A DNA stretch of 63,487 nucleotides, the filler included, from Rozella allomycis CSF55 (taxonomy: Eukaryota): NCBI GenBank assembly GCA_000442015.1. It is 12 parts of 12 records of this genome, joined end to end, with 100 filler letters (N's around TTAATTAATTAA, not from the genome) between each part and the next. Parts side by side here need not be neighbours in the genome. Positions count along the whole stretch, not along the records: positions 37,602 to 56,627 come from KE561394.1; 11 more parts are not named here. One strand, given 5' to 3'. Under the pieces are notes generated by a model, which was not told where the DNA came from, made no database searches, and worked only from the letters and a program-made list of their open reading frames with translations. Shown piece after piece: positions 29,628 to 52,850 of this stretch; positions within the stretch are counted from its first letter, which is position 1; each line of letters begins with the position of its first letter. The position numbers and the translations under genes were made by a program.

Positions 29628-29811
29628 CAGTGGATTAATAGGTGTAAGGTGTAAGGGAGAGAAGAATAAATTAAATAAATTTTGTTATAGCAGATTTACT
29701 GTAATATGTAGAGACTGATCATACTGTGGATAGACTCAAAATACAGCATATAACACTTAACCACTTCTACTCAACTACGCTACTCATGCTCACTCAAACA
29801 CCATAGTACAA

Positions 29812-29859
29812 TTAGTTTATTTCTGTGTTAGTTTATTTCTTTGTTAGTTTATTTCCTTG
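29812..29859. repeat. 3 x 16-bp tandem repeat TTAGTTTATTTCYKTG
   Basis: Directly visible. Confidence 0.8.
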
Positions 29860-29983
29860 TTGCTGTAATGAAAGTTGTAATCTNNNNNNNNNNNNNNNNN
29901 NNNNNNNNNNNNNNNNNNNNNNNNNNNTTAATTAATTAANNNNNNNNNNNNNNNNNNNNNNNNNNNNNNNNNNNNNNNNNNNN

Positions 29984-30660
29984 ATCAAAATCTATTTTCA
30001 AGTCTGGCGCTTGAGAGAGTATATGTGGACCTTGAAACACACTTTTTTAGAGGACAAAAGTTCTCTATTTACTTGAACAACGAGTTTAAATTAAAAGTAC
30101 CTGGAAATGTGATCCTTTTGGGTGATACAGTCACAGTAGAATCAGACTGCCCCGTGTCCATTGAACTTGGATCTAAGAAATTTACTGGGCTCGTCAGCGG
30201 ACAAAAATTTCAAGTCCCTATGTTAGATTTATCGAAATACCAACAAATCAAAGCTCAAGTGGGTGATAAATTAGGTTTTATAAGAACTTTCACAATGTTC
30301 CCAAATCCAATTGGTAACCATGTGTAAATGTTTAAAATAGACAACTTAGTTTTTGAGCCTACTTCAGTGCCATCTACATTAGAAAATATAAAAATTAATC
30401 TCCAATTGGCTGGTTTGGATGAAATAGTAATAAAGCAAATCGAAAAGCGCTCAATGAAACTATTTGCACACTTAAGTTATCCACCAATTTTCTGGCGTAT
30501 GAATCCTTACAATCGAACTGTTGAACTCGAAAAGAAAGGAAACACTTGGGTTTTCCCTAGATCCGAAATACCGAAAATTTTTCGCCCAAATCATTGCATC
30601 ATTCAAGCCGAGCTTCAAGGATCTATGCCTAGAACTATTGAAGAAATCGACGTGAAATAA
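29984..30660 (+). CDS. Uncharacterised beta-rich protein (member 1 of a local cluster), 5' truncated
   Basis: Two ORFs joined by a 27-nt intron after FPNPI. Confidence 0.6.
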
Positions 30661-34743: not shown

Positions 34744-34886
34744 ATCAGTCTAGAACTTCCTTATCGGGACCTATAAATTTACAATTNNNNNNNNNNNNNN
34801 NNNNNNNNNNNNNNNNNNNNNNNNNNNNNNTTAATTAATTAANNNNNNNNNNNNNNNNNNNNNNNNNNNNNNNNNNNNNNNNNNNN

Positions 34887-37501
34887 TTTCTACTTTTCCA
34901 ATATATCAAATTATTCCCTATTCTTATCTCGAAACCCGATGTCGATTTCCGATCATCCAGGCATCCTGCCCAATCACTATCTGTACTTGCGTGAACTGTA
35001 AAATCATCATCCCCTTGCAATATTTTCAACCTAAAATCCTTAGTATGCTTAACGTATCTCACGACTCTCAACAAATATTCCCAATGCTTTAAACCATAAT
35101 TCGAAGCGTATCTGGCTAAAAATCCGACTGCAAAACTTAAGTCGGGTCTTGTATTATTCGCAAGATATAATAATGAGCCCAATAATTTTCTGTAAGGTAA
35201 CTCGGCAACCAATTTTCTTTCAGCATCGTTCTTTGGACAATCATCTTTACTAAGTTTAATATTATTTTCCATAGGTGTTCTAGTCGGCTGCAGATTCAAA
35301 TCTTCGACGTTTCCAAGCATCTTTTCTACTAAAGCTTGTTGACTTAGATAATAATTTCCATTTAAATTCTCAATGAAGATACCGATAAAGAATCCAATTC
35401 CTCCACTCGTTTCCGTAATAATAAACTCCTTCTTTAATTCCCTTTTAATTTGTAAAATTTCTGCATCGGTTTTGGCAAATATTAATAAATCATCTACGTA
35501 TACTGCAACGATTTGTAAACTATTATTTTCCCACCTTGTCCAAACTGACCAGTCGCTATTCAATCTTTTAAAACCATACGATTCGAGAGATGTTTTTAAA
35601 GTTAGATACCATGCTCTTGCGCTTTGCTTTAGACCGTAAAGACCTTTCTTTAAGTGCATCACCCAACCTTCCTCGGCTGGAAATTCTGGTTCAATATTTA
35701 TTTCTCTGGGTTGTTGCAAATAAATTTCCTCCTCCAATTTCGAGTTTAAATACGCTGCTTCAAAATCCACTTGCGCAATCTTCAAATTCTTTTTCAAAGC
35801 CACTATTAAGAGTAATCTTAAAGTTGTTCCTCCCATGACTGGCGAATATGTATTGGTGTAATCTGTTCCATATTTTTGAGTAAACCCTTTTCCCACCATT
35901 CGACATTTAAATTTCACTGGTTGATTGAACTGGTTTCTCTTTCTTCTAAATACCAACTTTGACTGCACTGCTCGCTTTCCCTCAGGTAACTTCACCATTT
36001 CGTATGTTCCATTTTTGCGTAATCCATTTATTTCGACTTGAATAGATTTATCCCAATCTTCAACTTCGTCTTTGAGTAGCCTTGTTTCCCAGTATTCCAA
36101 AGTGTCCGGATCGCTTGTTTTTGACTTGGCAATAAATATTTTTCCACTTTTTCCTGAATGATTGATGTCTTGCATATAATCTGAGTCTGAGTCGCCATGT
36201 TCAGAATCTTCACTCTCACTGTCTTCTTTATAATTTTTCGGTTCAAGTTGTCTTAATTTTTCGGATTTTTCAATAGTTCTGCTGTGCGTACTGGGAGTTC
36301 CGGGCTTCGCTCTGGTACGACGTATATCGTCACTTGGTGACTCGGAACGACTTCTTTTACGTTGTACTGTGGCTGAATCGGAAGTTTCTGATTTTTGTGC
36401 TTCCTTGTTTGAGACGTTAATTTTCTCTTGGTCAATGTTTTCATCATCAGACGAATCTTGAATATTCATATTTTCCAAACTCAAATTTACATTTTCGATG
36501 AATTTTGCGCTTCTACTTCTTATCAAATTTTTCTTATCATCCACGAATCTGTAACAATCTCCTTCGTTGTCGTAACCAATAAAAATTAATTTTCTGGCCT
36601 TGTCGTCAAGTTTTCTTCTTTTCTCTTTCGGAATATGTACGTATGCTTCGCATCCAAAACTTCTCAAATTCTTCACACTAGGCTTTTGGCCTGTCCAAGC
36701 CTCAATAGATGATAATCCTTTTAACACTTGTTTGCCGATTCTTTGGAACGTAAAATTCGCAGTGAGTAGGGCTTCGGCCCAAAATGACTTTTCCATGCCT
36801 GAGTGGCTCAACATGCTTCGCACTGCTTCCAATAAAGTTCTATTGCGCCTTTCTGCTATGCCATTCTGAAATGGACTGTATGGTGCTGTGGCTTTGCACT
36901 TTATTCCTTCTTCTTCTAAAAATGTTTTCATTCGCTGGTCGAGGTACTCGCCTCCATTGTCGCAAATTAATTTCTTAATTTTCATTCCCGATTCCTTTTC
37001 TACTTCTTTCTTAAATTTCTTAAATTTCTCAAAAACTTCAGACTTCTTTTTAAGAATGTAAATCCAACACATATCAGTATGACCATCAATAAAAGTGACA
37101 AAATATCGAAATCCTTGAGTTGTTGGTGTCGGGAACGGACCGCAGACGTCCGAATGGATCTCCTCGAGTTTTTGCGACGCTCTTTGCCTTGGACCCTTGG
37201 GGATCGGTGCTACCGTCGACTTTCCAGTGGCGCAGCCTTCACAAGCTTCCATGTGCGCCTGATTTCCGAAATTTGGTAAATCGTTAACAGTATTTAGTTT
37301 TCCCATTTCGACGATGGTTTTTGTATTGATGTGACAAAGACGCTTGTGCCATAATTCCAACTTTGATTCTTGAGTTAACAAATTCTTATCTTTTGTAATT
37401 TCCAGATTGAGTTCAAATAATGATCCGTATTCATTTTCACGGGAAGCTTCAAGTAGAATATCTGTGCCTGTACTGACGATGCATTCATTCCCCTTTTTGT
37501 T
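34887..37501 (-). mobile_element. Ty1/copia pol (open frame: pre-integrase, integrase, RT, RNase H start)
   Basis: LWHKRLCH, IHSDVCGP, CDNGGEY, QNGIAERRNRT, LYGLKQS, YVDDLL, TRPDLSFAV, TDSDWAG. Confidence 0.96.
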
Positions 37502-37601
37502 NNNNNNNNNNNNNNNNNNNNNNNNNNNNNNNNNNNNNNNNNNNNTTAATTAATTAANNNNNNNNNNNNNNNNNNNNNNNNNNNNNNNNNNNNNNNNNNN
37601 N

Positions 37602-38760
37602 CGTACCTATATCTACCCCCACAGTCATTGCTCAGGTTCTGACCTCCGAGCAGTGATCTCTGCGGTCCACCAATTGCATCCTCAGATGGACTTAAAACCT
37701 TCTGATCTCAATAACATTGAGGAATATCTACCAAGGTGTGAGCGAATCTATAATGATAACAAGTTGAATACTGAACAAACGAAACATCTTCGCAGACTAT
37801 TCGCGCACAATCACGAGTCCGTTGCACATTGGCTAACAAGGCACAATAAATTACACCCACGCTGCAACTGGGATGTCCCGAAGAAAGATTTGTTAAAAGA
37901 GTTCCTCGCTCCTTATTGGAAGTCCGAAAAGTTCTCCAAGATTGTCAAGATCAGTACTACCATGGAGAAATAGTTCCGGAATTCATCGGAAGATTCCAAG
38001 ACCTCTTGGCGGGGAACAACATTGCGTACATAATCTCTGACCAGCAACACAATCTTATAAAGGAACTACTCCTTTCGAAGCTGCCTGTTTCAGTGAAAAG
38101 AGTGCTTAACACCAACCCGGTGTGTGAATTCCCCACAATCGTGAGACTCATGCAGGCCGTAAAGGAATTCCCCGGAATGATATATCGGTTGCATACGCCA
38201 GCCGACCTCCTACAAAGAGAAGAGTTGAGACTCAGAAGGAAGCTCCCGGTAGTACCGCCAANTCTGCCTGATTTAGTGAAAAGAGTGCTTAACACCAACC
38301 CGGTGAGTGAATTCCCCACAATCGTGAGACTCATGCAGGCCGTAAAGGAATTCCCCGGAATTATCGGTTGCATACGCCAGCCGACCTCTCACAAAGAGAA
38401 GAGTTGAGACTCAGAAGGAAGCTCCCGGTAGTACCGCCAAGACGAAAGTCACTACCACTTATTATTGTGAATTTCATAACAACAATCCGAGAGTGCGACA
38501 CAACACCGAGGACTGTAGAGCTAGCCAGGGCAAAACAGGAAACAACTCGGGGCAGTCGGAGGAAAAGAAAGAGGCAAGAAAGGTTTGCATCAAAAAACTC
38601 TGCGATAAGTGTGCACAACCTTACGAGAACGGCAACAATGAAGTGCGCGAGAAAACAAAGGAATAAAGCATCTTCCTCTAATGTTCACAAAAGGAAAATA
38701 GATCTCCGTGAAGAATCCCCTGAAGAACTCTTGGAAGAAGACGAGATTATTGTACCTAGA
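37602..38760 (+). mobile_element. Gag-like region of a Ty3/gypsy element (fragmented)
   Basis: W..KKDLLKEFL..Y, V.EFI.RF capsid-like motifs and Cys/His-rich segments upstream of gypsy pol. Confidence 0.6.
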
Positions 38761-41700
38761 ACAATTCATTTCAAGATTCTGTACACTCCCGAATGCATAC
38801 ATTAGGATAGACACAGGTAACCACCCACCGGCTTTCAAGAAGCAATACCAAATTGCGCACCGTCTGAGATCCATCGTGACGGAACAAGTTGAAAAGTGGA
38901 CGAGAGATGGTGTGATTAAGGAAATGAACGGAAATTCTGAATGGAATAGTTCTTTATTAGTTGTAGCCAAGAAANCCTATTGGAGACCAATCAATCCACA
39001 AAAAGATTCTGTACAGTCCCTATCGCTTTTATAAGGATCGATACAGGTGACAACCTTCCAGCCTTCAAGAAACAATGTCAAGTTGCATACCGTCTGAGAC
39101 CAATAGTGACCGAACAAGTTGAGAAATGGAAGAAAGGTGGTTTGATTAAAGAACTGAATGGACATTCTGAATGGAATAGTTCCATTGCTAGTTGTAGCAA
39201 CGAAAAATGTAGCTGGGAATATTACGGGTTGGAGAACATGCCTTGATCCGAGACACATCAATCAAATTACAAAGATTATTACATATCCATTACCGTTGAT
39301 AAAAGAGATTCTTGAAGCCAAGAAAGGATCTGTGGTATTCACCAACATAGACTTGACAGTGGGATTTCATCAATTTAGAGTTAACGAGGAGGATCAAGCC
39401 AAAACAACGTTGACATGGAACGGACAACAGTATAACTTTGTTGGAGCTCCACTCGGTTTTAAAAAAATACTTGCTGAGTTCCAGAACGTGATGACTAAGT
39501 TTTTGAGCAAATACGACTTTGTGACAGTTTACATAGACGACATAATAATTCATTCAAAGTCGTACGAAGAACACCTAAGACACGTATCCATTGTNAAGTT
39601 ATTGAGCAAATTCGACTTTGTGAAAGTTTAAATAGACGAAACCATAATTCATTCAAAGTCGTACGAAGAACACCTAAGACACGTATCCATTGTCATTAAA
39701 GAGTTGAAAAAAAATCAACTAATGATAAATATACCTAAGTGTCCATTCGCCTGTCAGGGAATGAATGTTCTCGGATTCAAAATAAACAGAAATGGAATTA
39801 CCTATCGTTCCGGAAAAGCTCGTTATAATGGATGACTTGGAAGTTCTAGTCAATGGTCATATGTTGACCAACAATCGGGATACTTCAATTTCTTCAGAGA
39901 TATGATACCAAATTATTCCATTCTTACAAAACCACTAGATAAATTCAGAAAAGCTAAGAAAGTGGTTTGGAATGAAGAATATCCGAGAATATACGACACA
40001 ACTTGAGACGCCCTCTGGAGTCAAATAATGTTGAAGTATCCTGATTTCAACACACCTTTCATTGTTGCCACAGATCCTTCCAGCAGAGGCCTCGGAGCCG
40101 TGCTTCATCAGTAGAAGGATGGTGAGGATCAATATGTTTGTTTTGCGTCAAGAGCACTAACTCAAGGAGAAAGAAANCGCGAAAAGCTAAGAAAGTGGTT
40201 GGGAATGGAGAACATAAGAGAATATACGACACAATCAGAGACGCCCTCTGGAGTCAAATAATGTTGAAGTATCCTGATTTCAACAAACCTCTTATTGTTG
40301 CCACAGATGCCTCAAGCAGAGGCCTCGAAGCCGTGCTTTATCAGCAAGAGGAATGATCAATATGGTTGTTTTGATTCAAGAGCACTAACTCAAGGAGAAA
40401 GAAACAACAGTAAGACAGAGAGAGACTTAGCGGGAATTATATTTGCCCTAGCGAATTTATAATTACGTTTATGGAAGCCATTTTACCTTATATACAGATC
40501 ATCGAGCTCTTGCTTTTCTTTTCACAAANTTTCAAGAGCACTAACGCAAGGAGAAAGAAACAACAGTAAGACGAAGAGAGAATTAGCGGGAATTATATTT
40601 GCCCTAACGAATTTATAATTACGTTTATTGAAGCCATTTTACCTTATCTACAGATCATCGAGCTCTTGCTTTTCTTTTCACAAAAAAGCATGATAATGCC
40701 ATGATGAACAGTTGGATGGACTTATTGCTGGAGTATGATTTCTAAATCATACACAGGACAGAATATTAAATATTCTCCCTGACAGACTAAGTCGGATTTA
40801 CTACGCCAGTCCTTTAAAGAAGTTGAATAACCTAAGATCATGACAATGCATAAAGATGAAGGATTTATAAACAACCCATTGAAGTTATCAGATAAGATAT
40901 TGAGAAGGATTGAAAAACATAGGGGATTTTTCTCAATGGAGCTCTTGGTTTTCTTTTCACAAAGAAGCATGTTAATGCCATGATGAACAGTTGGATGGAC
41001 TTATTGCTGGAGTATGATTTCTAAATCATACACAGGACAGAATATTAAATATTCTCCCTGAAAGACTAAGTTGGATTTACGACGCCAGTCCTTTAAAGAA
41101 GGTGAATAACCTAAGATCATGAAAATGCATAAAGATGAAGGATTTATAAACAACCCATTGATGTTATCAGATAGGATATTGAGAAGGATTGAAAAACATA
41201 GATGATTTTTCTCTATGGAGCTCTTAGCTAATCCTGGGAATAACAAACTACCTGTTTTCTGCATCAATGAAAAAGAATGTTTCAAACTACCACTAGGACA
41301 AGAAGCTATTAGGGCAGAACCCAAGGAAGATCGTAGTCACAAACGTCTGGTGAAATTAATCATGGACAAATCAAAGGGATCAATTTTAACACCATTGAAG
41401 GAAAACGAAACTTGGTTCGAATTGCTGAAAGAATATACAAATTTCGATCCAATAGTAATCACGACTAGTGATGAAACGTTTATAAAGATGGATANATTTT
41501 CTGCATCAATGAGAAAGAATGTTTCAAACTACCACTAGGAAAAAAAGTTATCTGGGCAGAACCCAAGGAAGATCTTATTCACAAACTTCTAGTGAAACTA
41601 ATCATGGATAATCAAAAGGATCAATTTTAACACCGATGAAAGAAAACGAAACTTGGTTTAAATTGTTAAAGGAATACACAATCTCTAATCCAATAATAAT

Positions 41701-43260
41701 CACCACTAGTGAAGAGACATTTATTAAGATGGATAGAAACATTCCTTCATACAATCAATATGTAGAGTCGACGATTGATACAAAAGAAAAACAAACTAAG
41801 AACGTTGAATTTATTAATTATACAGAGCTGGGAAATTTGGTTCAAATTGCTGAAAGAATATACAATTTCCGATCCAATAGTNCAATCCAATAGTTATCAC
41901 AACTAGGGAAGAAACATTTATAAAGATGGATAGAAACACTCCTTTATATAATCAATATGTAGTTTGGACGATTTGTACAAAAGCAAAACAAAACATGAAT
42001 GTTGAATTTATCAATATACAGAGCGGGAGTTTCAACATGAAGTGAGAGGCATTTCACAGATCAACATTCCGATCANGTAACTGGCCATCCATCAGATCAG
42101 ACTTCGATAAAATAGTCCAGGGCTGCATAGATTGTCAAAGATTCAATATAGGAAAGATTGGATTTCATCCGNCTCCATTTTCTTTAATGTTCGCGAGACA
42201 ACTGAACCATGTCAAAGATTTTAATAATGACACACCTCTTCAAGAAATATCTGAAAAAGAGTTGATACAGAGACTCAATTACATGAGACAAATTGTATAT
42301 CCCGAAGTCAACAGAATAGCCAGAAACAACGCGTATCTGNTGACTGTGAAAAAGTAGTCCTGAGTTGCATAGACTGTCAGAGGTTCAACATAGGGAAAAT
42401 TCGATTTCATGCGTTGAATTCCACAACTTGTATGTTACCAAATCGACGAGTTCTCTATGAACTTGAAAGAATTTCCATTATCCAAAAGAAGGAATAAGTA
42501 TCTGTTACTTATAGTTGACACCTGTACAACATTTATATTTCTTAGAGCCCTACAAGATACGGAAATGAAAACAATCGCAACCACATTGTTTTCTCTGTTT
42601 TGTGAATTCGGGTTCCCAAGGAGCATTAGATCGGACAACGTTCGAGAATTTCTTAATAGAATCATTTCCGAAATGATGAAATTATCAAACATTAATCAGA
42701 GGTTCATCACACCATACAACCCTAGAGCTAATGGAATAGCAGAAAGGTTCATTGGGACAGTAGCGAATACAATATACAAGAATTTGAGAGGCAAAGATAC
42801 AGAGTGGGATAATTTTACTGATCAGACTCAATGCATTCTAAACTTGAGAGTGTCCGACACAACCAACTCCACTCCATTTTCCTTAATGTTTGCGAGACAA
42901 ACGAATCATTTCAAAGATTTAAATAAAGAAACTCCTTTTCAAGAAATATCTGAAAAAAATTGATACACAGACTCAATTATATGAGACAAGTTGTATACCC
43001 CGAAGTCAACAGAATAGCCAGAAACAAGTCGTATCTGGAATGGGGTAAATTCTTAAGAAACAAGCGAATTAAATGGTTCCAACCAGGAGCATCCGTCATG
43101 ATTAAAGATAACCTTAGGTCTACGAAATCAGAAGCCTACGACACAGGGCCATTCATGATTGTAAGACGAAAAATGGAGGAGCGTACATCTTATAAGGACC
43201 AGATGGAACTCTATACACAAGACCTCCTCATGTCTTAAAACCTTTTAAGGGAATAATCCC
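38760..43260 (+). mobile_element. Degenerate Ty3/gypsy pol: RT - RNase H - MTase-like insert - integrase (mosaic of copies)
   Basis: WRTCLDPRHIN, YIDDII, PDFNKPLIVATDASS, KRELAGIIFAL, DHRAL, LPDRLSR, CIDCQR, IRSDN.REF, PRANGIAER; many stops and frameshifts. Confidence 0.92.
41130..41990 (+). other. DIRS/Dam-like N6-adenine methyltransferase-fold domain inside gypsy pol (2-3 partial copies)
   Basis: LSDRILRRIEKH..FSMELLANPGNNKLPVFC..ECFKLPL...WAEPKEDLIHKLLVKL....SILTP....TWF.LL...PI.I parallels DLFA..N.KL..FC..AF..W..NPP..LI..VL.K....ILV.P.W...W. Confidence 0.65.
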
Positions 43261-43261
43261 G

Positions 43262-44300
43262 NAAATCAGTGTTTGCATGCAATCACGTAGGTGGTTGCAC
43301 ATGATCCGTGATCGACAATTTCCAGCATTCAAATCCTCTGATTACCCATCAAATATTGTGAATAGCATCTAATACTTTGTTTTAATAGCTAAGATATTGA
43401 TATTCATTGCTGAAATGTGGACCAATCGTGGTTTGCGTTCAACATGGTTGGGGTGACATATCCACCACTAGGCGAATAGAATCTCAAATTACATGTTTTA
43501 TGTTATGGCGGTGCTTTTAACGTGTTTCATTGCCACTTCATTAACAGTTATCCATTTTATTGTTTGAAACACGGTCAGCTGCAGCACGCACATTATTGAC
43601 AAAATGATGTAATAAACATCTAAGCATGATTTTTATTCATTAAATCTAGTTAAATTGACTTAATGCACTCTGCAGATTCCATCAACATGGCGAGGGATAC
43701 ATTATTGTTTTTAGCATGTTTCTAACTATTATACCCACGTTGTGTTCCATGGAAATAAGGTGACTGTGTATTTGCATATCACATAATACATGGGCACCTC
43801 GATTGGCCAAAGCCTGCGTAATTTTAACCCGCTTAGTCAGTTCACGCCTCGTGCTCGTATCCTTCATGGAAAATGGTTGTTTAGTTTTGTATTCATTCCA
43901 ATGTAAATCATACATCCCCAGATGGTTTGAAAAGGTAAATTAGCTTGACGATACATGGATTTCCATAATTTCCATAAATCAAAGTGACAAACTATGCGTG
44001 GCAGGTATCCAGAACCATTTTACCAGATCTGCTATGCAACATGATGGAATACATTTCCAGAATCCAAGGCCTACTAATAAAATGTCACCTCACTTGTTCC
44101 TGCTTGGTATCTATTACCATACACCTTATGTCGGCACGACAATGTTTTTCGCCATGTACGCAACAAAACTTTTGATGATCCACGCACGTAGTACAACGAC
44201 CCTCGAAATTCTCATTGCAATTTGTCAATTGTTGCGCTCTTCACGAAGTCTCTGTGAATGATCATTTGAATCAGGTTGGATCATATCATCATCATCATCA
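43262..44300 (-). pseudogene. Possible degenerate MULE-like transposase fragment
   Basis: Only scattered Cys/His motifs (FCC..KHCRADI, CLLHHFVNN, ACKH), interrupted by stops. Confidence 0.25.
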
Positions 44301-44552
44301 AGCAGGTGCTCTCAACTCAACCGCGTTCTGAGCTTCTGTAGGGTTTTCAGAATTTTTGTCTGTCATCCGGTCTGTCATTTTTGACTTTATGCCCTGTACT
44401 ACCTCTTTCGTTCTTTTTTTCTTGGAGTGCCATCATTTTCTTGGACTCTAATGATTCTCAATCCACGCTTTATCCCATAGATATTAAATCCACCTCTCAG
44501 GTATTTCATTTTTGTATTTGGGAATTTTCGGGATAATAGGGTTTTATGATTN

Positions 44553-44665
44553 GATGAATACTTGTTGAAATGGAAGAATCTGGATGACTCCCATAACAAG
44601 TGGGTTCAAGAAGAAGACTTCCATGATAATAAACCAATTCCAAAATTTTGGGAAGGAAGACGGGA
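44553..44665 (+). mobile_element. Chromodomain of a gypsy integrase (chromovirus-like)
   Basis: DEYLLKWKNLDDSHNKWVQEEDFHDNKPIPKFW. Confidence 0.8.
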
Positions 44666-45082
44666 TCAACATAAGATCGTCAACTTGCAAAAGCCGCGAC
44701 CAGAAAGATTAAGGTTGAGAATGCCAAGAGATCAAGATTAACAAAGAGACCTCAAANCACATCTTAGAATAATCAACTTGCAAAAGCCGCGACCAGTACG
44801 ATTAAGGTTGAGAATGCCAAGAGATCAAGATTAACAAAGAGACCTCAAAAGAGACCGATTAGGTCAGAAATAAGAAATTCATGGTGAAATCATACACAAA
44901 AACAATTGACGTTAAATTAACTACACTAATCCTAATCCTTTCGGAAAACCGGCAAAAGATCTTGAGTGGACACACGGACGAATACAGTGTAGATAATGAT
45001 CCCAAATATAGTCCCTGTTCATACTACGTCCTTTATCATTCCGCATGATAAGGATTTTACGNTATAGAAAGAATGATCCCTT

Positions 45083-45099
45083 ATCGGACGGGGAGTTTA
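45083..45099. repeat. 17-bp dispersed inverted-repeat core ATCGGACGGGGAGTTTA (also 45623-45639 and 53956-53972; reverse orientation at 45700-45714 and 46382-46398)
   Basis: Five copies in both orientations; three continue into a shared TTAACGAGCACTGC-type extension. Confidence 0.75.
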
Positions 45100-45177
45100 C
45101 GACCGGACTTCAGACACGATTATTGGCAAGTTGCTTTAATGATATTTTCACTTCCGATATTACTCACTTTAAGTGTT

Positions 45178-45230
45178 TTATGTATGTGTGTGTTTGTGTG
45201 TATGTGTGTATGTAAACTTTTGTGTATGTA
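45178..45230. repeat. (TG)n/TGTA microsatellite in an LTR-like segment; 45259-45340 is repeated at about 46797-46880
   Basis: Direct sequence similarity (gagataatcc..tctcaatcgacat..cttttaaattactatccaat). Confidence 0.65.
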
Positions 45231-45788
45231 AACTCCAAAGATATCAATAAATAGGACGGAGATAATCCTTTCTCAATCGACATCGGTCTTACTCATTTAT
45301 CTTTTAAATTACTATCCAATATATGTGGATTAAGAAGCGACAAAGCGAAGAAGTTCTTGCCTCTTGGAGACGTTTGTTTTAGAATTGTGGGTATTTTGCA
45401 CCAGCGTCTGATAACGTCCCAGATCTGTCCCTGTCATANATTCACCATTTAAAATTGGAATTCTAAGGGTATATTTATCATCATGCCAATGAAAAATCTA
45501 TAAAAATATTTAAACAACATAAATTTATTTAACATTTTACAATCTCGGCCTTGGCCCTTGTGTCGTACCTAGATGTGGGGACACCTGTGGTAAAGTCGGA
45601 TATCAAACTCCAGATTAGGCTTATCGGACGGGGAGTTTACGACCCGGACATCAGAAACGATTATTGGCATNCGAAGAAATTTTATTTTTAATTCTTAACT
45701 AACTCCCGTCCGATTAAACGAGCACTGCAAAACTTGTCATTCGCAGGTGCCTTGAAAGATCTATACCTTTTTCGAAGCCACAGCAGTT

Positions 45789-46189
45789 ATGTCGACTCCT
45801 TCTCCTCTCATTTGGTTTCTGCTATTGGACTCTTCTACTGGTCAACCGTACAAAAATACTACTGCCACCTCCATTTTACGCTCTTCTCTTGCTGTTCCTA
45901 TCGTTGACCACTTTCGAGATGCTGTTAAGGCTAACAGCCCCAACAAGCTTTCTTTTGTGGATTCCGCTGATCTACTGGTATACAAGAACAAATCTGCCTT
46001 TGTTGAAGGAAAGGAAAAGCCTTTGAAATCCTCTTGCCCCCTGGATGGTCATGGAATAACCGATAACGAAGAAGACCTCCTCGTTGTCGTCGTCCCATCA
46101 TCATTAAGCAGCTCCACCAGTCTTACCCGTAAGGAGCCACATCCCAAAAGAAAACAACGATGGGTTAAACTCAGTGATAACATCCAAGG
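45789..46189 (+). CDS. Crinkler (CRN)-type N-terminal ubiquitin-like header domain, truncated by an N join
   Basis: IWFLLLD..GQPYK.T.A..V.HFRDAVKA...L..VD.ADL.VY.NK....L.......LVVVVP. Confidence 0.75.
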
Positions 46190-46959
46190 NCTATTTATTA
46201 GAACAAGATAAAGGGATTTGGGATTCGCTGGAGGAAAACGGTAAATGAAGGTCATTAAAATGAAATAGATCTCAATTTATTTTTTTAAGAAATCACAATT
46301 TTTATGGCATCTTCAAACTAATGTCAAAAAATGATAATGATAGCAAATAGTTGTTTTGTGCGAGAAATTTATTTTTAATTATAAACTCCCCGTCCGATTT
46401 AACGAGCACTGCGAGACTTGTACGATACAATTAATATTCATTAACATGAATATAACAACCATTTGCGGTGGATCTAAAGGATGTTACCTTAACACCGACA
46501 GTGTAAGCCGGCTACTAGCGGAAACGGCAAGTCAGTGCAACCTGTAGTAAGGTTGGATATCAAGGCCAACAATAGCTACTAATACAAATATAACAACCAT
46601 TTGCGGTGTATCTGAAATATAGACAGGGATTCTCGGCTAAATCTATACACACCCGGGGTGNAGACAGGGATTCTCGGCTAAATCTATACACCCCCGGGGT
46701 GTCTGAACACCCCCGGTTCAGAGTACGCGTATTTGTGTAATTTCCTTTAGCCGGGTTTCTCATTCGAAATTCCGAGGAGACATGTAATAAAAAGACAGAG
46801 ATAATCCAATCTCAATCGACATTCGTTTTACTTATTAAACTTTTAAATTACTATCCAATTTATGAGGATTAAGATACTACAAGCGCATTGAGCGACATCG
46901 TGTCCATCGTTTCGCATATTTTTTCCATATGGAATTCTTGGATTGGATCTTATTGTGTC

Positions 46960-47004
46960 GTAAAGTCCACCCCGGTCGGGCTAACCCTGGCTGTCGCACT
47001 AAGC
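46960..47004 (+). repeat. 45-bp repeat also at 53511-53556, just upstream of a gypsy gag fragment (probable element leader)
   Basis: gtaaagtYcaccccggtcgKgctaaccctgg..gtcRcactaagc. Confidence 0.6.
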
Positions 47005-47139
47005 NCTATGGGCTATGGTGATTGGTGAACCGTGAAATCTGAGATCTTTAGATGGTTGACGAATTTTAGATCTAGAAATTATACATAATTAAGGAAGGGG
47101 AAACCACTCGTTTTAAACCTAAAATTTGAAATTCAAAAT

Positions 47140-48240
47140 TTAATGTTTTGAAGAAAATATTGGAATAAAATTGAGGGCATTGAAATAGAAATCTTNACTG
47201 TTATATAGAAATGCCAATTGAAACATAAATAGTCCATCCCTTGGAAACTTTTTAATAAATTCCAAAACCTTCTCCCAATGATTTGTCACAAACGTTTCGT
47301 CTTCAAACAATTTCATCAAAATGACTCGTTTATAACCATTTATCATTGAAAAATTTATTTTAAGAACTTTATTGATAATTGTCGCCCCGACTGGTGTGAT
47401 AGGGGAGGTACGAAATGCGTACATTACAGTTCTAAATCCCGAATATGAAAATGCACTAAAATGATTTCGAAGCATCCACACACCCAAATGAACAAAATTT
47501 GACTCTGTACTTGTACCATTGCATGCTTTCCTGAGAGAGTTTATTAATGTCCTTTCATCTACAGGCTTCAAGTTTTCCCTTTGGTCGTTCAAAAATTCAT
47601 TCAAATCATCTTGACCCAAATTCGCTTGGGATATCAAGTTGAAAATCTGTCGAGTATTTTCCAGTGTCTCTTGTATATACAGGTTGCCACTGACGGAAGT
47701 AACGTTTGCGCTGATATCCTCCGCTGAGCGCAAATAAAATTTACGTGATTGCAATATTTGCACACATTGTTCCATATCATTAACTATACAATACTCCAAA
47801 GGTTCAATATCCGGCTTTTCATCAGAACCTCGATGGTGGCCGTTGTAATTGTAACAGTTGAAGGGCGTGAATTGGCTTCGTTTTACCAGTAATACAATTA
47901 AATCTTCCTTTAAAATTCTGTCTTTATTTGCAAATTCTCCATTCGGATCAAGGAAATGATGGTAGTTTGCATAGAAGTATTGAATTGCGTTTTCGTCACA
48001 AAAAGTTCCATCAAAAAAAGGACCGCATTTACCAAACCAATGAAAGAGAACATCAGAATGTATTTTAAGATTCTGATAAAGATGTTTTTTTGTCGACCGA
48101 AAACGATTACTAGTTTTTACATCCACAAAATCGTTGATATGATTATAAATGTCAAACGGTAAGACTTCAGAGGTTCCCGTAGTGACATCCGTAGCGATGG
48201 TGGACCAAGCCAAGAGGAAGAGTAAGAAGATAAAATTCAT
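47140..48240 (-). CDS. Secreted protein with an N-terminal F-box-like motif (candidate effector)
   Basis: Signal peptide MNFIFLLFLLAWSTIA, then LPFDIYNHINDFVDVKTSNRFRSTKKHLY; intronless; 3' end crosses an N join. Confidence 0.6.
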   Translation of the reverse strand: MNFIFLLFLLAWSTIATDVTTGTSEVLPFDIYNHINDFVDVKTSNRFRSTKKHLYQNLKIHSDVLFHWFGKCGPFFDGTFCDENAIQYFYANYHHFLDPNGEFANKDRILKEDLIVLLVKRSQFTPFNCYNYNGHHRGSDEKPDIEPLEYCIVNDMEQCVQILQSRKFYLRSAEDISANVTSVSGNLYIQETLENTRQIFNLISQANLGQDDLNEFLNDQRENLKPVDERTLINSLRKACNGTSTESNFVHLGVWMLRNHFSAFSYSGFRTVMYAFRTSPITPVGATIINKVLKINFSMINGYKRVILMKLFEDETFVTNHWEKVLEFIKKFPRDGLFMFQLAFLYNSXDFYFNALNFIPIFSSKH

Positions 48241-48376
48241 CTATGAGCCAGGGTCTGATTGTTGAGCCTCATTAGACAAAATTTTTNCTTTCATATCCAA
48301 AATAATCCCATATTGCATAGAACACTTATGCCGATCATTTGGTCTGTTAAATCCTCTTACTAATTGTCTAGCGAAT

Positions 48377-49678
48377 ATGGAAATACGAACAACAAGGACA
48401 CCTGACCATCAACGCATTAATTTTAGAGACAAATTTGTTCAAAAGAGACTTGTAGGTGTCATTGATAAACTTGAAAGAAAAGATACTGTAAATACAACCA
48501 AAAAGATCAAGTCTGCTTTAGGTGAATTAGCCACATCATCATTGACGCCTAGAACTGGCAGTGTTAGGGAAAAATCACCAAAGTTGGAAAGAGAATTAAA
48601 TAATAAAGAAAATAACGATGCGAATGCTTTTGCTTGTGAAAGAAAGGAGCAAGAAAAAGTGCCACTGGGCAAATGGAGCTCATTTATTTATGCCTACTCG
48701 GCGTTGTTTTTGATTTATGCTGTGCTATTTTATCCTTTTGAAATCATCAGCAATTATTTTACATTTGGGGAAACAGTTGCTTCCATTTGGTATCCTAACT
48801 GTGGTGTGAATTTAATATTCTTCTTATACTTTGGTCCATTATTTATCATACCATTCATGTGCGCGATTTTGATAAATCTTCTTATCTTTTTCCCAATAAA
48901 TTGGTCTTTGGGGACAATGTTTCTACATTGCATTCTAAAGGCTAGTTGCTATTTGATTGAGTCTTTGATATTGAACAGAGTAATACAAACGAACATTACG
49001 CCAAGAACAAGAAAGGAACTCTTTTTAATGCTACTAACGTTTTTAATCTGTCACATTGCCGCAGGATTCAGCTTTTTTACAATGTTCTTAATTGACTTTC
49101 GCCTTAATTTGATAACTCCTTCTTCCATCTTTGGTTGGGTTTTGGGTGATGTAGGTGGTATCTTAAATGTTCTCCCATTGTTCTATTTTGTTATTTTCCC
49201 GGATTTCATTGAAGTAGATCCAGAACAGAGATTGCAACATTGGATTGATTTCAAGAATCTATTAAGAAGTAAACAATTTTGGTTGCAAAGGGTACAAGAA
49301 GTAGTTATGATTGTTGTTGTATTCTATTTGGCGCTTGGGATTCTTCCTCAAGAGTTTAACACTGAAAAGGCATCAGATAGGCTTTATGTAACATCTTCTG
49401 CTGTCATGTACTATGTGTTCCAGTATGGAAGAAAAGGAGCTGCGTTTTCATTAGCCCTTTATAACATTGGGCTCATGCTCTTAATTAGTGTACTCAAATT
49501 GAAAGTGGACATAGCCAATGTTCAAATGTTTATAAATGCCACAGGGTTTTCATGCCTTCAGCTAATAATTGAAAGGGACGTTGCGTTTAGAAAAGCGGTT
49601 GTCTTTTCTTTAGAAAATCATGAGTTGGTATTGAAACTATTAGAAAAAGGAGAACAATTTGGAAACGTTGTAATTTAG
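48377..49678 (+). CDS. Intronless multi-pass membrane protein with a MASE1-like sensor domain
   Basis: SIWYPNCGV..FF..FG, WVLGDVGGILNVLP, FQYGRKGA, ends LIIER; about 9-10 hydrophobic segments. Confidence 0.65.
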   Translation: MEIRTTRTPDHQRINFRDKFVQKRLVGVIDKLERKDTVNTTKKIKSALGELATSSLTPRTGSVREKSPKLERELNNKENNDANAFACERKEQEKVPLGKWSSFIYAYSALFLIYAVLFYPFEIISNYFTFGETVASIWYPNCGVNLIFFLYFGPLFIIPFMCAILINLLIFFPINWSLGTMFLHCILKASCYLIESLILNRVIQTNITPRTRKELFLMLLTFLICHIAAGFSFFTMFLIDFRLNLITPSSIFGWVLGDVGGILNVLPLFYFVIFPDFIEVDPEQRLQHWIDFKNLLRSKQFWLQRVQEVVMIVVVFYLALGILPQEFNTEKASDRLYVTSSAVMYYVFQYGRKGAAFSLALYNIGLMLLISVLKLKVDIANVQMFINATGFSCLQLIIERDVAFRKAVVFSLENHELVLKLLEKGEQFGNVVI

Positions 49679-49702
49679 AAAGCAAAATAAACCATTTTAT
49701 CT

Positions 49703-50025
<323 letters not shown>

Positions 50026-50329
50026 NGTGATCGCTATAATAACTCATTTTAATCTTAAAACAAACAAACTTAAACTAACTTAACTTAACTTGATCTTTAT
50101 TTATTGCAAGGCTCTTCCTTTTATAGCATTATGACAGTGATTGATAGGTTTTGTCACTTGTCACATCTTGTTCTGAATTTATTTGGGCGCCCTAGAGTTT
50201 CATTTGTGTCATCTGGCATTGCATGTGTGCCATCGTGAGGTTCATTTGTGTAAATTTGAGTTTGTCTGCCCCAGTTTGATTTTTATTTGGTGCAACATCA
50301 AGTTCGAGAATGAATGCATGTATTCTGAT

Positions 50330-51954
50330 TTCGCTGTCGAGAAACTCCTAAGTAGATTTGGGAGATCCTTTTGGGAGGAACAAAACCCATTATCCAGTGA
50401 TATTGGCAGTAATGTTAAACTCTTTAATCAAATCGGGGATACAGTTTCGTCATAAGAATGAGAAGAAGCGACAGTCATTTGGTAGCCAACAAAGTCCTTT
50501 ACGGCGTTAATGTCTAGTTAAATCATAAACGACTCAATAGTTTTGAATATTGGCGAAACAGGTTGACAATAAAAACCGCCAGTCTTACCCTTCAAATCAT
50601 CAGGCGTAGTATAATTTATTTTCTTTATTCCCTTAGGAATGACACGATACTTTTCGTGATCAATAAATTTGTCAACATCTGCGGCGTATTCCTGTGTCTC
50701 GCTGGCATTGTCGAAAATAGCGAATCACTGTTCATGAATATTACTCAACTCGTTAATATAAATTTTCTAAATACACGAAAAATATAAATTTAAATTTTAC
50801 CGCCAAATGATAATTCGTTTTAGTAAAATTGTTCGTTAAGTTTGTATTACAATCTGTTCGTTGCTTTTTGAAGAAGGCAAGGATTCCGTTGTCAACTGGA
50901 ATCTCATTATTCAGGTTTCTCAATTCATGCATTCCAGATTCAGCGAGTTTAAGGTGTGAAACAGCTTCATAAATATTTCCCTGCAGACCACCACCAATTT
51001 TTGAAGCGTTTTGTACTGCATACAACGCATGGGCATAATAGCGCCGTCACCTGAACACCCTGTTTGTAAAACATTCGACTACATATCTACAACACCATTT
51101 CAAATCATAGTTGAGAAGAGTTTCATTAGGTTCAATAAGATCAAGCACACAAGGAATATTTCCAGCAATATCAATATCTGTAACGCGGAGCAACAATTCT
51201 AAATCCACTGACATGAATTTTCTTTTTATTGTGATGTGCTAAAACTAGATCTTGAAACGCCACCAAAAAGATCAAATCTTGTTTTACATATTTCCAGTGC
51301 AAAATTTGTCAGAGATCTATTTTAGTTTTCTTCTCCATTACTTTCAATCAAGCAAATGTTTTTGAGCAACTCTTGTCGTCCATGCATTTATAAACTCTGT
51401 CACGTCCTCGTTGCTCCAAGGTAGAACATAGACTAACGGCGCATCAACAGACTTTTGAAACCTTTGGTAATTTCTCTTTTATAGTGAACAGAATGATATA
51501 GTTCTAAATTGTCTTCCAATAAACTTGTTGTCAACAGACCCAGCCAAAAGAATCCAACAAATGTCGTTTTTCCAAATCTGTGGGGCAACGTCACCCTTCA
51601 TCACTACGGTCTTTTCTTTCCATCAAAGTATTTCCATGTTCTGTTCTCACACTCAACATAAACATTCTCTCTCAATTCATAAACTAGATGTTTCAACACA
51701 GATATTATAGCTGATGACTCTCTAACCCAAGGTGACCCTGTGCATATGAACCTTCCTTTATTGTATCCCTTAATCTTTTTATAATCGCCCCATAACACTT
51801 CCGATTAAACACATCTGCACTCACACCCAACTCTGTAAAATTGTTATCTAGCCTAATGCATGTTCCGGGGTTATAATTTGCCATTTCTTCGCTAGCAGGA
51901 ATACTTTTGGGGTGTCAATTTTACTCTTAACAATAGTTAAAATCTTTCTCGCAA
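50330..51954 (-). pseudogene. CRN/RHS-type P-loop NTPase + restriction-endonuclease-like protein, degenerate copy A
   Basis: Walker A decayed to GSPWVRES; RFDLFGGVSR, GGLQGNIYEAVSH; multiple stops and frameshifts. Confidence 0.65.
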
Positions 51955-51955
51955 N

Positions 51956-52850
51956 CCTGCATTACTTCCCTTAAATTAGCGGACATGACTTTTCTTTCTA
52001 TTATGGTTTTGAATTGTTTCAAAGAAATTGATTTGCTAAAAATAGATCTTAAAACGTCACCAACAAGATCAAATCTTTTTTTACAAATTTCCAGTGCAAA
52101 ATTTGTCAGAGATCTATTTTCGTTTACTTTTCCATTACTTTCAATCGAGGCAAAATTTCTTTGAGCAAACTCTTGTCTGTCATAGCATTTATAAACTTTG
52201 TCACTTCCTCTTTGCTCCAAGGTGGAACATAGACCAACGGCGCATCAACAGACTTTTGAAACCTTTGGTAATTTCTCTTTTGTGGTGAACAGAATGCTAT
52301 CGTTCTAAATTTTCTGCCAATAAACTTGTCGTCAACAGACCCATCCAAAAGAACCCAACAATTTTCGTTTTTCTAAATCTTTGTGGCAAAGTCACCCTTC
52401 ATCACTACTGTTTTCTTTTTGCCATCAAAGTATTTCCATGTTCTGTTCTCACACTCAACATAAACATTCTCTCCCAATTCATAAACTAGATGTTTCAACA
52501 CAGATATTATAGCTGATGACTTTCCAACCCCAGGTAATCCTGTGCATATGAAACTTCTTTTATTGTATCCCTTAATCTTTGTTATAATCATCCCATAACA
52601 CTTCCGATTAAACACATCTGCACTCACTCCCAGCTCTGTAAAATTGTTATCTAGCCTAATGCATGTTCCTGGGTTATAATTTGCCATTTCTTCACTGGCA
52701 GGAATAATTTTTGGGGTGTCAATTTTACTCTTAACAATAGTTAAAATCTTTCTCGCAAACGCTTCATCTGGGACTAAGTCTTTGTGATAAAGCAAATTTT
52801 GTATCACGAACTCAACATCCTATTCAGGCATTGGGCCTGAAGGTAGAAGC
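51956..52850 (-). pseudogene. CRN/RHS-type P-loop NTPase, degenerate copy B
   Basis: FNRKCY, GLPGVGKS, WVLLDG, CSP....Y..F.K, YVPPWSKEE; in-frame stop at about 52373. Confidence 0.7.

What the first reader, a model, noticed from the sequence alone, without database searches (positions are those of the whole stretch)
40790..43260. Ty3/gypsy element carrying a DIRS-like N6-adenine methyltransferase-fold domain between RNase H and integrase
Seen: straight after the gypsy RNase H end (the LPxRLS motif), with no N in between, the frame runs into LSDRILRRIEKH..FSMELLANPGNNKLPVFC..ECF...(W)AEPKEDLIHKLLVKL...ILTP....TWF.LL..PIII. Integrase Zn finger, core and a chromodomain follow. Established: an RT-RH-MTase order with DLFA..N..FC..AF..W.NPP..LI..K..P.W motifs characterises DIRS1 tyrosine-recombinase retroelements, not DDE-integrase gypsy elements. 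Inference: this is a hybrid LTR-retrotransposon architecture. The catalytic (N/D)PP(Y/W) reads EPKE in both copies, so the domain may be a conserved inactive nucleic-acid or SAM-binding module rather than an active 6mA writer.
Basis: partly seen in the sequence, partly recalled or inferred. Interest (0 to 1): 0.8.

Follow-up and report, generated by a model that had tools for sequence, protein, structure and literature searches.

The report
Gypsy retrotransposon carrying a degenerate adenine-methyltransferase domain
A jumping gene of the gypsy type in the fungal parasite Rozella carries, between two of its normal enzyme parts, a worn-down copy of an adenine-methyltransferase domain; this kind of element was first described in a 2026 preprint, so it is a real but no longer unprecedented find.

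Summary
Window 37602-44741 is a tiling of short, diverged, overlapping assembly pieces of one Ty3/gypsy family. Proteins read from it are filed as Rozella allomycis CSF55. Between RNase H and the integrase zinc finger lies a roughly 150-residue domain (41155-41988).

The domain has no Pfam hit of its own. It matches P0009 (RNase H + Dam) without gaps over 89 residues (E 7e-13), and P0009 passes Pfam Dam PF05869. A Rozella-only profile matches environmental Dam segments at hhalign probability 97.6%. Five environmental polyproteins show PR-RT-RH-Dam-integrase in one ORF, three of them ending in a chromodomain. A modelled intact relative folds like N6-adenine methyltransferases (PCIF1 Z 10.6, M.TaqI Z 8.5).

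The catalytic NPP(W/L) reads EPKE in Rozella and FPPT, FAPT or NTTP in relatives. Yet diverged Rozella copies differ mostly at synonymous sites (dN/dS 0.14 and 0.30), so a retained, probably non-catalytic module is the best reading.

No tyrosine recombinase lies in the scaffold, so it is not a DIRS element or a DIRS/gypsy chimera.

The architecture (DAM-LTR) was published in a May 2026 bioRxiv preprint whose main text names no fungus. This is therefore a new, strongly diverged member of a known kind.

The parts
37602..38700 (+). 5' part of the element as assembled (gag-like region, by position only). The scaffold starts inside the element, so there is no 5' LTR.
   Evidence: ORFs 37602-37970, 37850-38404, 38311-38802 and 38346-38663 have no Pfam family at E<=0.01. 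The scaffold boundary was read from the N map. tblastn with three relatives' protease regions (P0010, P0011, P0013) found nothing in the window at E<=1; the P0020 stretch (its first 300 residues) matched only 38741-39180, the start of the reverse-transcriptase region.
38702..39832 (+). Reverse transcriptase, in overlapping pieces
   Evidence: RVT_1 E 5.6e-15 (39158-39628) and 3.8e-7 (39632-39832). The best BLASTP match is P0020 (Amoeboaphelidium occidentale), 55.6% over 135 aa.
39948..40792 (+). RNase H, ending in the LPDRLS motif (40775-40792; repeated as LPERLS at 41054-41071)
   Evidence: RT_RNaseH_2 E 9.1e-11 (40126-40353), with weaker hits at 40268-40459 and 40463-40615.
40657..41214 (+). 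279-bp tandem duplication (95% identity) of the RNase H end plus the start of the Dam-like domain, inside an N-free piece
   Evidence: One contig of run X1 joins 40946 to 41239 without the duplication.
41155..41988 (+). Dam/PCIF1-type methyltransferase-fold domain, about 150 aa net. It is spread over three overlapping pieces: 41155-41494, 41496-41881 and 41884-41988.
   Evidence: BLASTP to P0009 E 7e-13, 89 aa without gaps. Alignment A1. hhalign probability 97.6%, E 3.2e-12, 111 columns. There is no direct Pfam hit.
41317..41328 (+). EPKE at the position of catalytic motif IV (NPPW in P0011). The second copy is at 41559-41570.
   Evidence: The motif IV column of alignment A1. Coordinates were read.
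42079..42413 (+). CxxC half of the integrase H2C2 zinc finger, in two pieces (42079-42171, 42342-42413), with a misplaced integrase C-terminal piece (42173-42339) between them. The HH half is missing at the N at 42076.
   Evidence: Translations. 42173-42339 matches 42872-43037 at 88.6%. P0001 shows the full linker and AHEIGHFG. Loose ends of runs X4 and X3 at 42075 continue as in P0001.
42418..42960 (+). Integrase catalytic core (DDE)
   Evidence: rve E 8.7e-12, 45.6 bits against a cut-off of 32.6.
42954..43235 (+). Integrase C-terminal region. It is not a chromodomain.
   Evidence: No Pfam family. It matches the post-core region of P0015 and P0012 at 39-42%.
44553..44741 (+). C-terminal half of a chromodomain followed by the stop codon. 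It probably is the end of the same pol, but it lies on a separate piece.
   Evidence: Chromo E 7.9e-6, 26.1 bits against a cut-off of 25.1. The best matches are the chromodomains of the Dam-bearing P0010 and P0011.

Best explanation
The region holds diverged, individually broken copies of a high-copy Ty3/gypsy (chromovirus-like) LTR retrotransposon of Rozella allomycis. Its Pol carries a class-I methyltransferase-fold domain of the Dam/PCIF1 (DIRS-type) kind, inserted between RNase H and the integrase zinc finger. That makes it a strongly diverged member of the DAM-LTR class.

Shown: the homology of the domain, its place in the domain order, the DDE-integrase context, and the loss of the catalytic NPP(aromatic) motif (EPKE).

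Inferred: because motif IV is gone while the coding sequence has stayed under purifying selection, the domain most likely acts without catalysis. It could be a nucleic-acid-binding or protein-binding module of the polyprotein, holding the element's RNA or RNA:DNA intermediate, or docking to host chromatin or transcription machinery. It is unlikely to write 6mA.
For: Homology.
- The window's 95-aa fragment finds P0009 in a scan of 1.84 billion representatives (E 6.6e-4).
- It aligns to P0009 without gaps over 89 aa (E 7e-13).
- P0009 scores 38.1 bits on PF05869 Dam, above the 28.1 cut-off.
- A Rozella-only profile (A2) against an environmental-only profile (A3) gives probability 97.6%, E 3.2e-12.

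Architecture.
- P0010-P0014 have PR/RT/RH/Dam/H2C2/rve in that order in single ORFs; P0010-P0012 add a chromodomain.
- P0001, from another Rozella contig, runs from the Dam C-terminus into the integrase HH motif.
- A contig of run X4 joins 41263-41444 to 41883-42075.
- A plain gypsy in the same scaffold (55935-56627) has only 66 aa between RNase H and H2C2.

Fold.
- The model of the P0011 segment (core pLDDT 86-95) matches PCIF1 6irx (Foldseek E 6e-5; VIA Z 10.6, rmsd 3.3, 141 aligned), M.TaqI (Z 8.5), T4 Dam (Z 7.4) and EcoDam (Z 7.1).

Lost catalysis.
- The motif IV column reads NPPW (P0011), NPPL (P0013), FPPT (P0009, P0010, P0014), FAPT (P0012), NTTP (P0015) and EPKE (Rozella).
- Other Rozella proteins read AELKED (P0001) and AETKED (P0005).

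Constraint.
- dN/dS is 0.14 over 77 codons (off-frame controls 0.65 and 1.23; Fisher p 7e-7).
- dN/dS is 0.30 over 47 codons (p 0.036).
- For comparison, the RT N-terminus gives 0.12 and the integrase C-terminus 0.41.
Against: - The Rozella domain has no PF05869 hit even at E<=10.
- Its own model is mediocre (pLDDT 68.3). Its fold matches are weak: Foldseek best E 0.09, VIA top Z 4.1, tied with CheY-like receivers at Z 3.3-3.5.
- Every copy in the window has stops or frameshifts, and no intact full-length copy was seen.
- The selection test rests on two pairs of short assembly pieces, which may themselves be collapsed consensus of several copies.
- Linkage to the integrase core and to the chromodomain in the window passes through N joins.
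- No binding or activity was measured, so the non-catalytic function is inference only.
- No direct comparison with a DIRS sequence was made. The link to DIRS rests on Pfam Dam and on two papers.
Confidence: 0.75

Rival explanations
1. Assembly chimera: the methyltransferase-like segment belongs to a DIRS element and is joined to gypsy parts only by scaffolding.
For: The scaffold is a chain of short pieces joined by single N, with collapsed repeat copies. The Dam-to-integrase step at 42076 is an N join with no overlap. Piece 40530-41494 holds an odd tandem duplication.
Against: The RNase H end and the Dam start lie in one N-free piece. The junction without the duplication stands in a contig of another run. 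P0001 carries the Dam end and the integrase HH motif in one gene model on another contig. P0009-P0014 show the same order in single ORFs. No Phage_integrase hit was found in 96 ORFs of the scaffold.
Confidence: 0.03
2. The domain is still an active adenine methyltransferase with an unusual motif IV, where Glu takes the place of Asn/Asp.
For: Purifying selection acts on the domain. The fold class is that of N6-adenine methyltransferases. Glu could in principle accept a hydrogen bond from N6 (inference).
Against: The second Pro and the aromatic residue of motif IV are both lost (EPKE), and the acidic residue of the DLFA strand reads E-L-L-A. Even canonical TE Dam domains gave no 6mA in E. coli according to the preprint. 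Iyer et al. judged DIRS1 methyltransferase domains likely inactive.
Confidence: 0.07
3. Neutral relic: the domain has no function and is simply decaying in dead copies.
For: All window copies carry stops or frameshifts. Recent duplicates (about 5% divergence) show dN/dS near or above 1. Several relatives also lost NPP.
Against: Between copies 14-21% diverged, synonymous changes dominate in the correct frame only (dN/dS 0.14 and 0.30), as for the RT. Structural positions are kept from Rozella to the environmental relatives: (L/V/I)TP, the W shortly after it, and the terminal W.
Confidence: 0.12
4. Different origin: the domain came from the host's PCIF1-like gene, or from another gypsy lineage, rather than from a DIRS element.
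For: The nearest solved structure is PCIF1, ahead of the bacterial and phage Dams. Iyer et al. place the DIRS1 domain in the PCIF1 clade. In my RT+IN tree the Dam-bearing elements are not one clade: their common ancestor spans 56 of 77 tips.
Against: The preprint reports one monophyletic eukaryotic TE Dam clade, with DIRS as donor. My tree is a quick FastTree on about 360 columns with a fragmentary Rozella row. No DIRS or PCIF1 sequences were in my alignments.
Confidence: 0.1

Closest known systems
DAM-LTR retrotransposons (Fernandez-Moreno et al., bioRxiv 10.64898/2026.05.21.726589; I read the outline, Results parts 1-2, Discussion and one Methods section)
   Same: A Ty3/gypsy-type element with a DIRS-type Dam domain in pol; some members also carry a chromodomain. 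The environmental relatives P0010-P0012 have the chromovirus-like form.
   Different: The five lineages named there are from Chlorophyta, Chloro-Ochrophyta, Ichthyosporea, Pyropia and Euglena. 'Rozella', 'fungi', 'Cryptomycota', 'chytrid' and 'Holomycota' occur 0 times in the main text. The preprint reports Asn-Pro-Pro in almost all Dam domains, whereas Rozella has EPK. Their screen used hmmsearch at E<=1e-5, which the Rozella domain would not pass.
DIRS1-type retrotransposon methyltransferase domain
   Same: The same domain family by Pfam Dam (through P0009-P0014), and the same position directly after RNase H. Iyer et al. already suggested a non-catalytic role for it.
   Different: DIRS elements use a tyrosine recombinase and have no DDE integrase. 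Here a DDE integrase with an H2C2 finger follows and no tyrosine recombinase is present. No DIRS sequence was compared directly.
PCIF1/CAPAM cap-specific adenosine N6-methyltransferase (PDB 6irx) and M.TaqI
   Same: These are the best structural matches of the modelled intact relative: Z 10.6 and 8.5, Foldseek E 6e-5 and 8e-4.
   Different: Both are active enzymes with an NPPF/NPPY motif and are free-standing or WW-fused proteins. The Rozella domain lacks the motif and is embedded in a Pol polyprotein.
Fungal and aphelid chromoviruses (Ty3/gypsy)
   Same: RT, RNase H and integrase are 43-56% identical to polyproteins from Amoeboaphelidium and to unnamed metagenome polyproteins; relatives of P0009 in the same set also come from Mucoromycota. 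A chromodomain fragment lies at the end.
   Different: 114 of the 121 relatives examined lack the Dam domain. No protease was found in the window copy.

Membership tests
Ty3/gypsy LTR retrotransposon | RT, then RNase H, then DDE integrase in one pol, in that order | tested here: met
   RVT_1 at 39158-39832, RT_RNaseH_2 at 40126-40615 and rve at 42418-42960, all on the + strand in this order.
Ty3/gypsy LTR retrotransposon | Flanking long terminal repeats | tested here: inconclusive
   The scaffold starts inside the element at 37602. The direct-repeat scan of 37602-47100 found only overlaps between pieces.
Ty3/gypsy LTR retrotransposon | Aspartic protease upstream of RT | tested here: not met
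   tblastn with the protease regions of three relatives (P0010, P0011, P0013) found nothing in the window at E<=1; the P0020 stretch matched only the start of the RT region. No protease Pfam hit was found. This may be a deleted or mis-tiled copy, since the relatives P0010, P0011 and P0013 do have a protease.
Chromovirus | Chromodomain at the C-terminus of the integrase | tested here: inconclusive
   A Chromo hit of 26.1 bits (cut-off 25.1) lies at 44550-44738. Only the C-terminal half is present, and it sits on a separate piece 1.3 kb beyond the integrase end.
DAM-LTR (LTR retrotransposon with a TE-type Dam domain) | A domain homologous to the Dam (PF05869-type) domain, encoded within pol | tested here: met
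   Met through intermediates: window to P0009 at E 7e-13; P0009 to PF05869 at 38.1 bits, above 28.1; hhalign A2 against A3 at 97.6%.
DAM-LTR (LTR retrotransposon with a TE-type Dam domain) | Direct hit to the Dam HMM (the operational screen of the preprint, E<=1e-5) | tested here: not met
   The window fragments, P0002 and P0004 give no PF05869 hit at E<=1 to 10. This is a detection criterion, not a biological one.
DAM-LTR (LTR retrotransposon with a TE-type Dam domain) | Conserved Asn-Pro-Pro catalytic triplet (reported for almost all members) | tested here: not met
   EPK in both window copies and in P0002 and P0004; ELK in P0001; ETK in P0005.
DIRS1-like retrotransposon | Tyrosine recombinase in place of a DDE integrase | tested here: not met
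   No Phage_integrase family in 96 ORFs of scaffold 37602-56627 (28, 68). A DDE integrase is present.
Active N6-adenine methyltransferase | Motif IV (D/N/S)PP(Y/F/W) | tested here: not met
   EPKE stands at the aligned position. The motif definition is recalled from general knowledge and described.
Active N6-adenine methyltransferase | Class-I SAM methyltransferase fold | tested here: inconclusive
   Rozella model (P0004): top Z 4.1, tied with non-methyltransferase folds. Relative P0011: Z 10.6 to PCIF1 and 8.5 to M.TaqI. The fold is therefore inferred for Rozella by homology.

The most novel reading that the evidence does not exclude
Rozella and the unnamed environmental elements P0009-P0015 form a further, holomycotan-associated DAM-LTR lineage. 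In it the methyltransferase-fold domain has repeatedly lost its catalytic motif (NPPW to FPPT, FAPT, NTTP or EPKE) yet is kept by selection. It would then be a pseudo-methyltransferase, working as an RNA, hybrid or chromatin docking module, perhaps as a PCIF1 mimic. If so, the benefit of the Dam domain to retrotransposons in general need not be 6mA writing.
Probability: 0.3. Interest if true: 0.6.

Novelty: new member of a known kind. Interest (0 to 1): 0.4.

Why it matters
The 2026 preprint proposes that LTR elements captured Dam domains to write or recruit 6mA and so sit in permissive chromatin. A lineage that keeps the domain under selection after losing the catalytic motif speaks to that model. 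It agrees better with the older view of Iyer et al. that the DIRS-type domain is a non-catalytic binder. The lineage is also invisible to the Pfam Dam model, which shows that HMM-threshold screens undercount these elements. It would extend the class to a deep-branching fungal parasite. It offers a natural series, from NPPW to EPKE, for testing what the domain does.

Tried and rejected
- The genome search 'own': no genome is held for this window. Copy number, intact copies, AMT1 and DIRS content of the genome could not be checked.
- The search for homologous proteins with P0009 residues 165-286, longer proteins: no hit.
- The search for related loci in metagenome contigs with A3: the pattern fell on the RNase H end motif. 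All 20 loci matched only residues 1-54 of the query, and 0 of 20 hold a Dam-like domain by tblastn. This scan was wasted for the purpose.
- Profile A3 against PDB sequences: best E 0.57, nothing meaningful.
- Fold search with the Rozella model itself: only weak matches.
- Representative search: of the 8 rows, P0003, P0006 and P0008 are long repeat-rich proteins matched by 31, 15 and 5 short stretches. I treated them as repeat-driven and did not follow them.
- Protein atlas: the nearest clusters are unnamed eukaryotic clusters, a few with PF05869 on 11-27% of members or with RVT_1/RNase H. These are leads only.
- Sequencing runs: no RNA holder is listed. All laid contigs are 425 bp or shorter in this repeat, so none spans RH to integrase.
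- Literature: 'Rozella allomycis' + '6mA' gave 0 papers. 'Rozella' + 'DIRS' + 'retrotransposon' gave 0 papers.
- The search of earlier findings: nothing.
- The preprint's supplementary tables (species lists) are closed. I cannot tell whether Rozella or any fungus was screened or scored there.
Full report
WHAT THE WINDOW IS

The window is a string of scaffolds joined by 44 N + TTAATTAATTAA + 44 N linkers. The finding lies in the scaffold 37602-56627 (19,026 bases). Within it, single N separate short pieces. Neighbouring pieces overlap by 98-240 bp at 79-95% identity. The element is therefore a tiling path through diverged copies of one repeat family, not one physical copy and not two tandem copies.

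Proteins read from this stretch are on file as hypothetical proteins of Rozella allomycis CSF55. P0002 sits on a contig of 19,026 bases; P0001, P0004, P0005 and P0007 sit on other contigs. In four public runs, more than 1,000 short contigs in each of three runs, and 86 in the fourth, lie on 40530-43261. This fits a high-copy family.

THE OBSERVATION

The gypsy RNase H ends with LPDRLS at 40775-40792. It appears again as LPERLS at 41054-41071 because of a 279-bp tandem duplication.

In the same N-free piece the reading continues, after one frameshift, as NNPLMLSDRILRRIEKHR*FFSMELLANPGNNKLPVFCINEKECFKLPLGQEAIRAEPKED...SILTPLKENETWFELLKEY..PIVITTSDETFIKMD. Two further overlapping pieces repeat the middle and add the end (..RNTPLYNQYVVWTICTKAK, to 41988).

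The TGA at 41203 is a minority letter: nearly all contig depth in 4 of 4 runs reads G there. At the frameshift near 41609-41612, roughly four tenths to all of the contig depth in each of the four runs carries an extra base. One X1 contig joins 40946 to 41239 without the duplication (all).

The integrase CxxC, the rve core (E 8.7e-12) and the C-terminal region follow. The stretch 42954-43235 is integrase C-terminus, not a chromodomain. A half chromodomain and the stop codon lie at 44553-44741 on a later piece (Chromo 26.1 bits, cut-off 25.1).

IS THE INSERT A METHYLTRANSFERASE-TYPE DOMAIN?

Directly, Pfam sees nothing in the window fragments or in the Rozella proteins P0002 and P0004, even at E<=1 to 10.

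An exhaustive phmmer scan of 1.84 billion representatives gave 8 rows:
- four Rozella fragments;
- three repeat-rich proteins that I set aside;
- P0009, a 286-aa fragment with gypsy RNase H, the same NILPDRLSR end, and a domain that scores 38.1 bits on PF05869 Dam (cut-off 28.1).

The window fragment aligns to that domain over 89 residues without a gap (E 7e-13).

A word-index search with P0009 found 156 polyproteins at E<=1e-10, of which 120 are listed. Five of these (P0010-P0014) carry PF05869. Their Pfam order is protease, RVT_1, RNase H, Dam, Integrase_H2C2, rve. P0010-P0012 add Chromo, all in single ORFs. P0015 has the same segment without a Pfam Dam hit.

An HMM that I built from the domain columns hits 7 of the 121 proteins (P0009-P0015) and none of the other 114.

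A profile of Rozella copies only (A2) matches a profile of the environmental segments only (A3) with hhalign probability 97.6%, E 3.2e-12, over 111 columns.

FOLD

The model of the Rozella protein P0004 is middling (pLDDT 68.3). Its matches are weak: Foldseek best E 0.09; VIA top Z 4.1 for a methyltransferase-like domain and PCIF1; EcoDam Z 3.3; CheY-like receivers Z 3.3-3.5. This is inconclusive.

The model of the intact relative P0011 has a confident core (pLDDT 86-95 over residues about 50-155). It matches:
- PCIF1, the cap-specific adenosine N6-methyltransferase: Foldseek E 6e-5; VIA Z 10.6, rmsd 3.3, 141 aligned;
- M.TaqI: E 8e-4, Z 8.5;
- T4 Dam: Z 7.4;
- EcoDam: Z 7.1.

By their titles, nearly all 50 rows listed are methyltransferases or restriction-modification enzymes. 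The family fold is thus that of N6-adenine methyltransferases. For Rozella this follows by homology.

PCIF1 as nearest neighbour agrees with Iyer et al. 2016 (PMC4738411, passages read). They put the DIRS1 domain in the PCIF1 clade and thought it likely inactive.

NOT A DIRS ELEMENT AND NOT A CHIMERA

RT, RNase H and integrase fragments match chromovirus-like polyproteins at 43-56% identity; the best RT hit is from Amoeboaphelidium occidentale.

No tyrosine recombinase family appears in 96 ORFs of the scaffold.

P0001, from another Rozella contig, runs from the end of the domain through a linker into AHEIGHFG, the integrase HH motif. Loose ends of runs X4 and X3 at 42075 read on exactly as P0001 does. 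A 401-bp X4 contig joins 41263-41444 to 41883-42075.

As an internal control, a second gypsy element in the same scaffold (55935-56627) has only 66 residues between RNase H and H2C2. The Dam-bearing family has roughly 225 (my estimate).

CATALYTIC MOTIF AND SELECTION

At the motif IV column, alignment A1 reads:
- NPPW in P0011;
- NPPL in P0013;
- FPPT in P0009, P0010 and P0014;
- FAPT in P0012;
- NTTP in P0015;
- EPKE in both window copies and in P0002 and P0004; ELKE in P0001; ETKE in P0005.

Structural positions are kept throughout: (L/V/I)TP, the W a few residues after it, and the terminal W.

Nei-Gojobori counts between overlapping window pieces give the results below.

| Region compared | Codons | dN/dS (coding frame) | Controls and notes |
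|---|---|---|---|
| Dam-like domain, pieces A/B | 77 | 0.14 | Sd 18, Nd 14; off-frames 0.65 and 1.23; Fisher p 7e-7 |
| Dam-like domain C-terminal part, pieces B/C | 47 | 0.30 | Fisher p 0.036 |
| RT N-terminus | 66 | 0.12 | comparison region |
| Integrase C-terminus | 54 | 0.41 | comparison region |
| Pairs 3-7% diverged (RT middle, gag, duplicated RH end) | 31-89 | above 1 (1.2-6.2), on 0.5-1 synonymous differences each | as expected for decay after insertion |

The sample is small, and the pieces may be collapsed consensus of several copies. Even so, the signal is that the domain was under constraint while the family diversified, without an NPP motif.

RELATIONSHIPS

In a quick FastTree of RT plus integrase core there are 77 tips. 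45 of the 121 proteins were dropped for lacking 80% of either part. The seven Dam-bearing tips are not one clade: their common ancestor spans 56 tips. Rozella sits with the Dam-less P0021/P0026 and near P0020/P0029. This is compatible with loss in many lines or with several captures. The tree is too weak to choose between them.

WHAT IS KNOWN

A bioRxiv preprint of 22 May 2026 (10.64898/2026.05.21.726589) describes exactly this class, DAM-LTRs. I read its outline, Results parts 1-2, Discussion and one Methods section. It claims the first report of adenine methyltransferase domains in non-DIRS LTR elements. It names five lineages (Chlorophyta, Chloro-Ochrophyta, Ichthyosporea, Pyropia, Euglena). 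It reports a conserved NPP triplet and no 6mA gain on expression in E. coli.

Its main text contains no mention of Rozella, fungi, Cryptomycota, chytrids or Holomycota. Its screen used hmmsearch at E<=1e-5 on EukProt v3 genomes, a threshold the Rozella domain cannot pass.

Searches for Rozella with 6mA, or with DIRS and retrotransposon, found no paper.

VERDICT

The claimed novelty of the architecture has been overtaken. What remains new:
- a fungal-parasite member;
- its extreme divergence, invisible to the Pfam model;
- a graded loss of the catalytic motif across its nearest relatives;
- evidence of purifying selection.

Together these favour a non-catalytic role. Interest is moderate.

Noticed in passing
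window 34835-37549 (-), neighbouring scaffold: An uninterrupted 904-aa ORF. By eye its order is integrase, then RT, then RNase H, as in Ty1/copia. It runs from one N linker to the other.
   Followed up: no
window 55061-56627 (+): A second, ordinary gypsy element (RVT_1, RNase H, Integrase_H2C2) cut off by the scaffold end. Its RNase H-to-H2C2 spacer is only 66 aa, so it has no Dam-like domain.
   Followed up: partly
window 47143-48240 (-) and 48266-49675 (+): Two long open frames (366 and 470 aa) with no Pfam family at E<=0.001.
   Followed up: no
window 40657-41214: A 279-bp tandem duplication (95%) whose junction lies at a shared GAGCTCTTG. It is either an assembly artefact or a template-switch product. 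A contig of another run lacks it.
   Followed up: partly
window 38400-38800: No aspartic protease lies between the gag-like region and the RT start, although the relatives P0010, P0011 and P0013 have one.
   Followed up: partly
window 43263-44551: A 1.29-kb piece with no family hit on either strand sits between the integrase end and the chromodomain half. It may be a mis-scaffolded piece or a nested insert.
   Followed up: partly
window 28001-30000: GC skew jumps to 0.50 in this 2-kb bin, against at most 0.19 in absolute value in all other bins.
   Followed up: no
proteins P0009-P0015 (environmental): Within one group of Dam-bearing chromovirus-like polyproteins, motif IV ranges from intact NPPW/NPPL to FPPT, FAPT and NTTP. 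P0015 has the domain but no Pfam Dam hit.
   Followed up: partly
window 45080-45130 and 45620-45670: A repeated stretch (CTTATCGGACGGGGAGTTTACGACC...GATTATTGGCA) occurs downstream of the element. It may be LTR or another repeat. I read it by eye.
   Followed up: no
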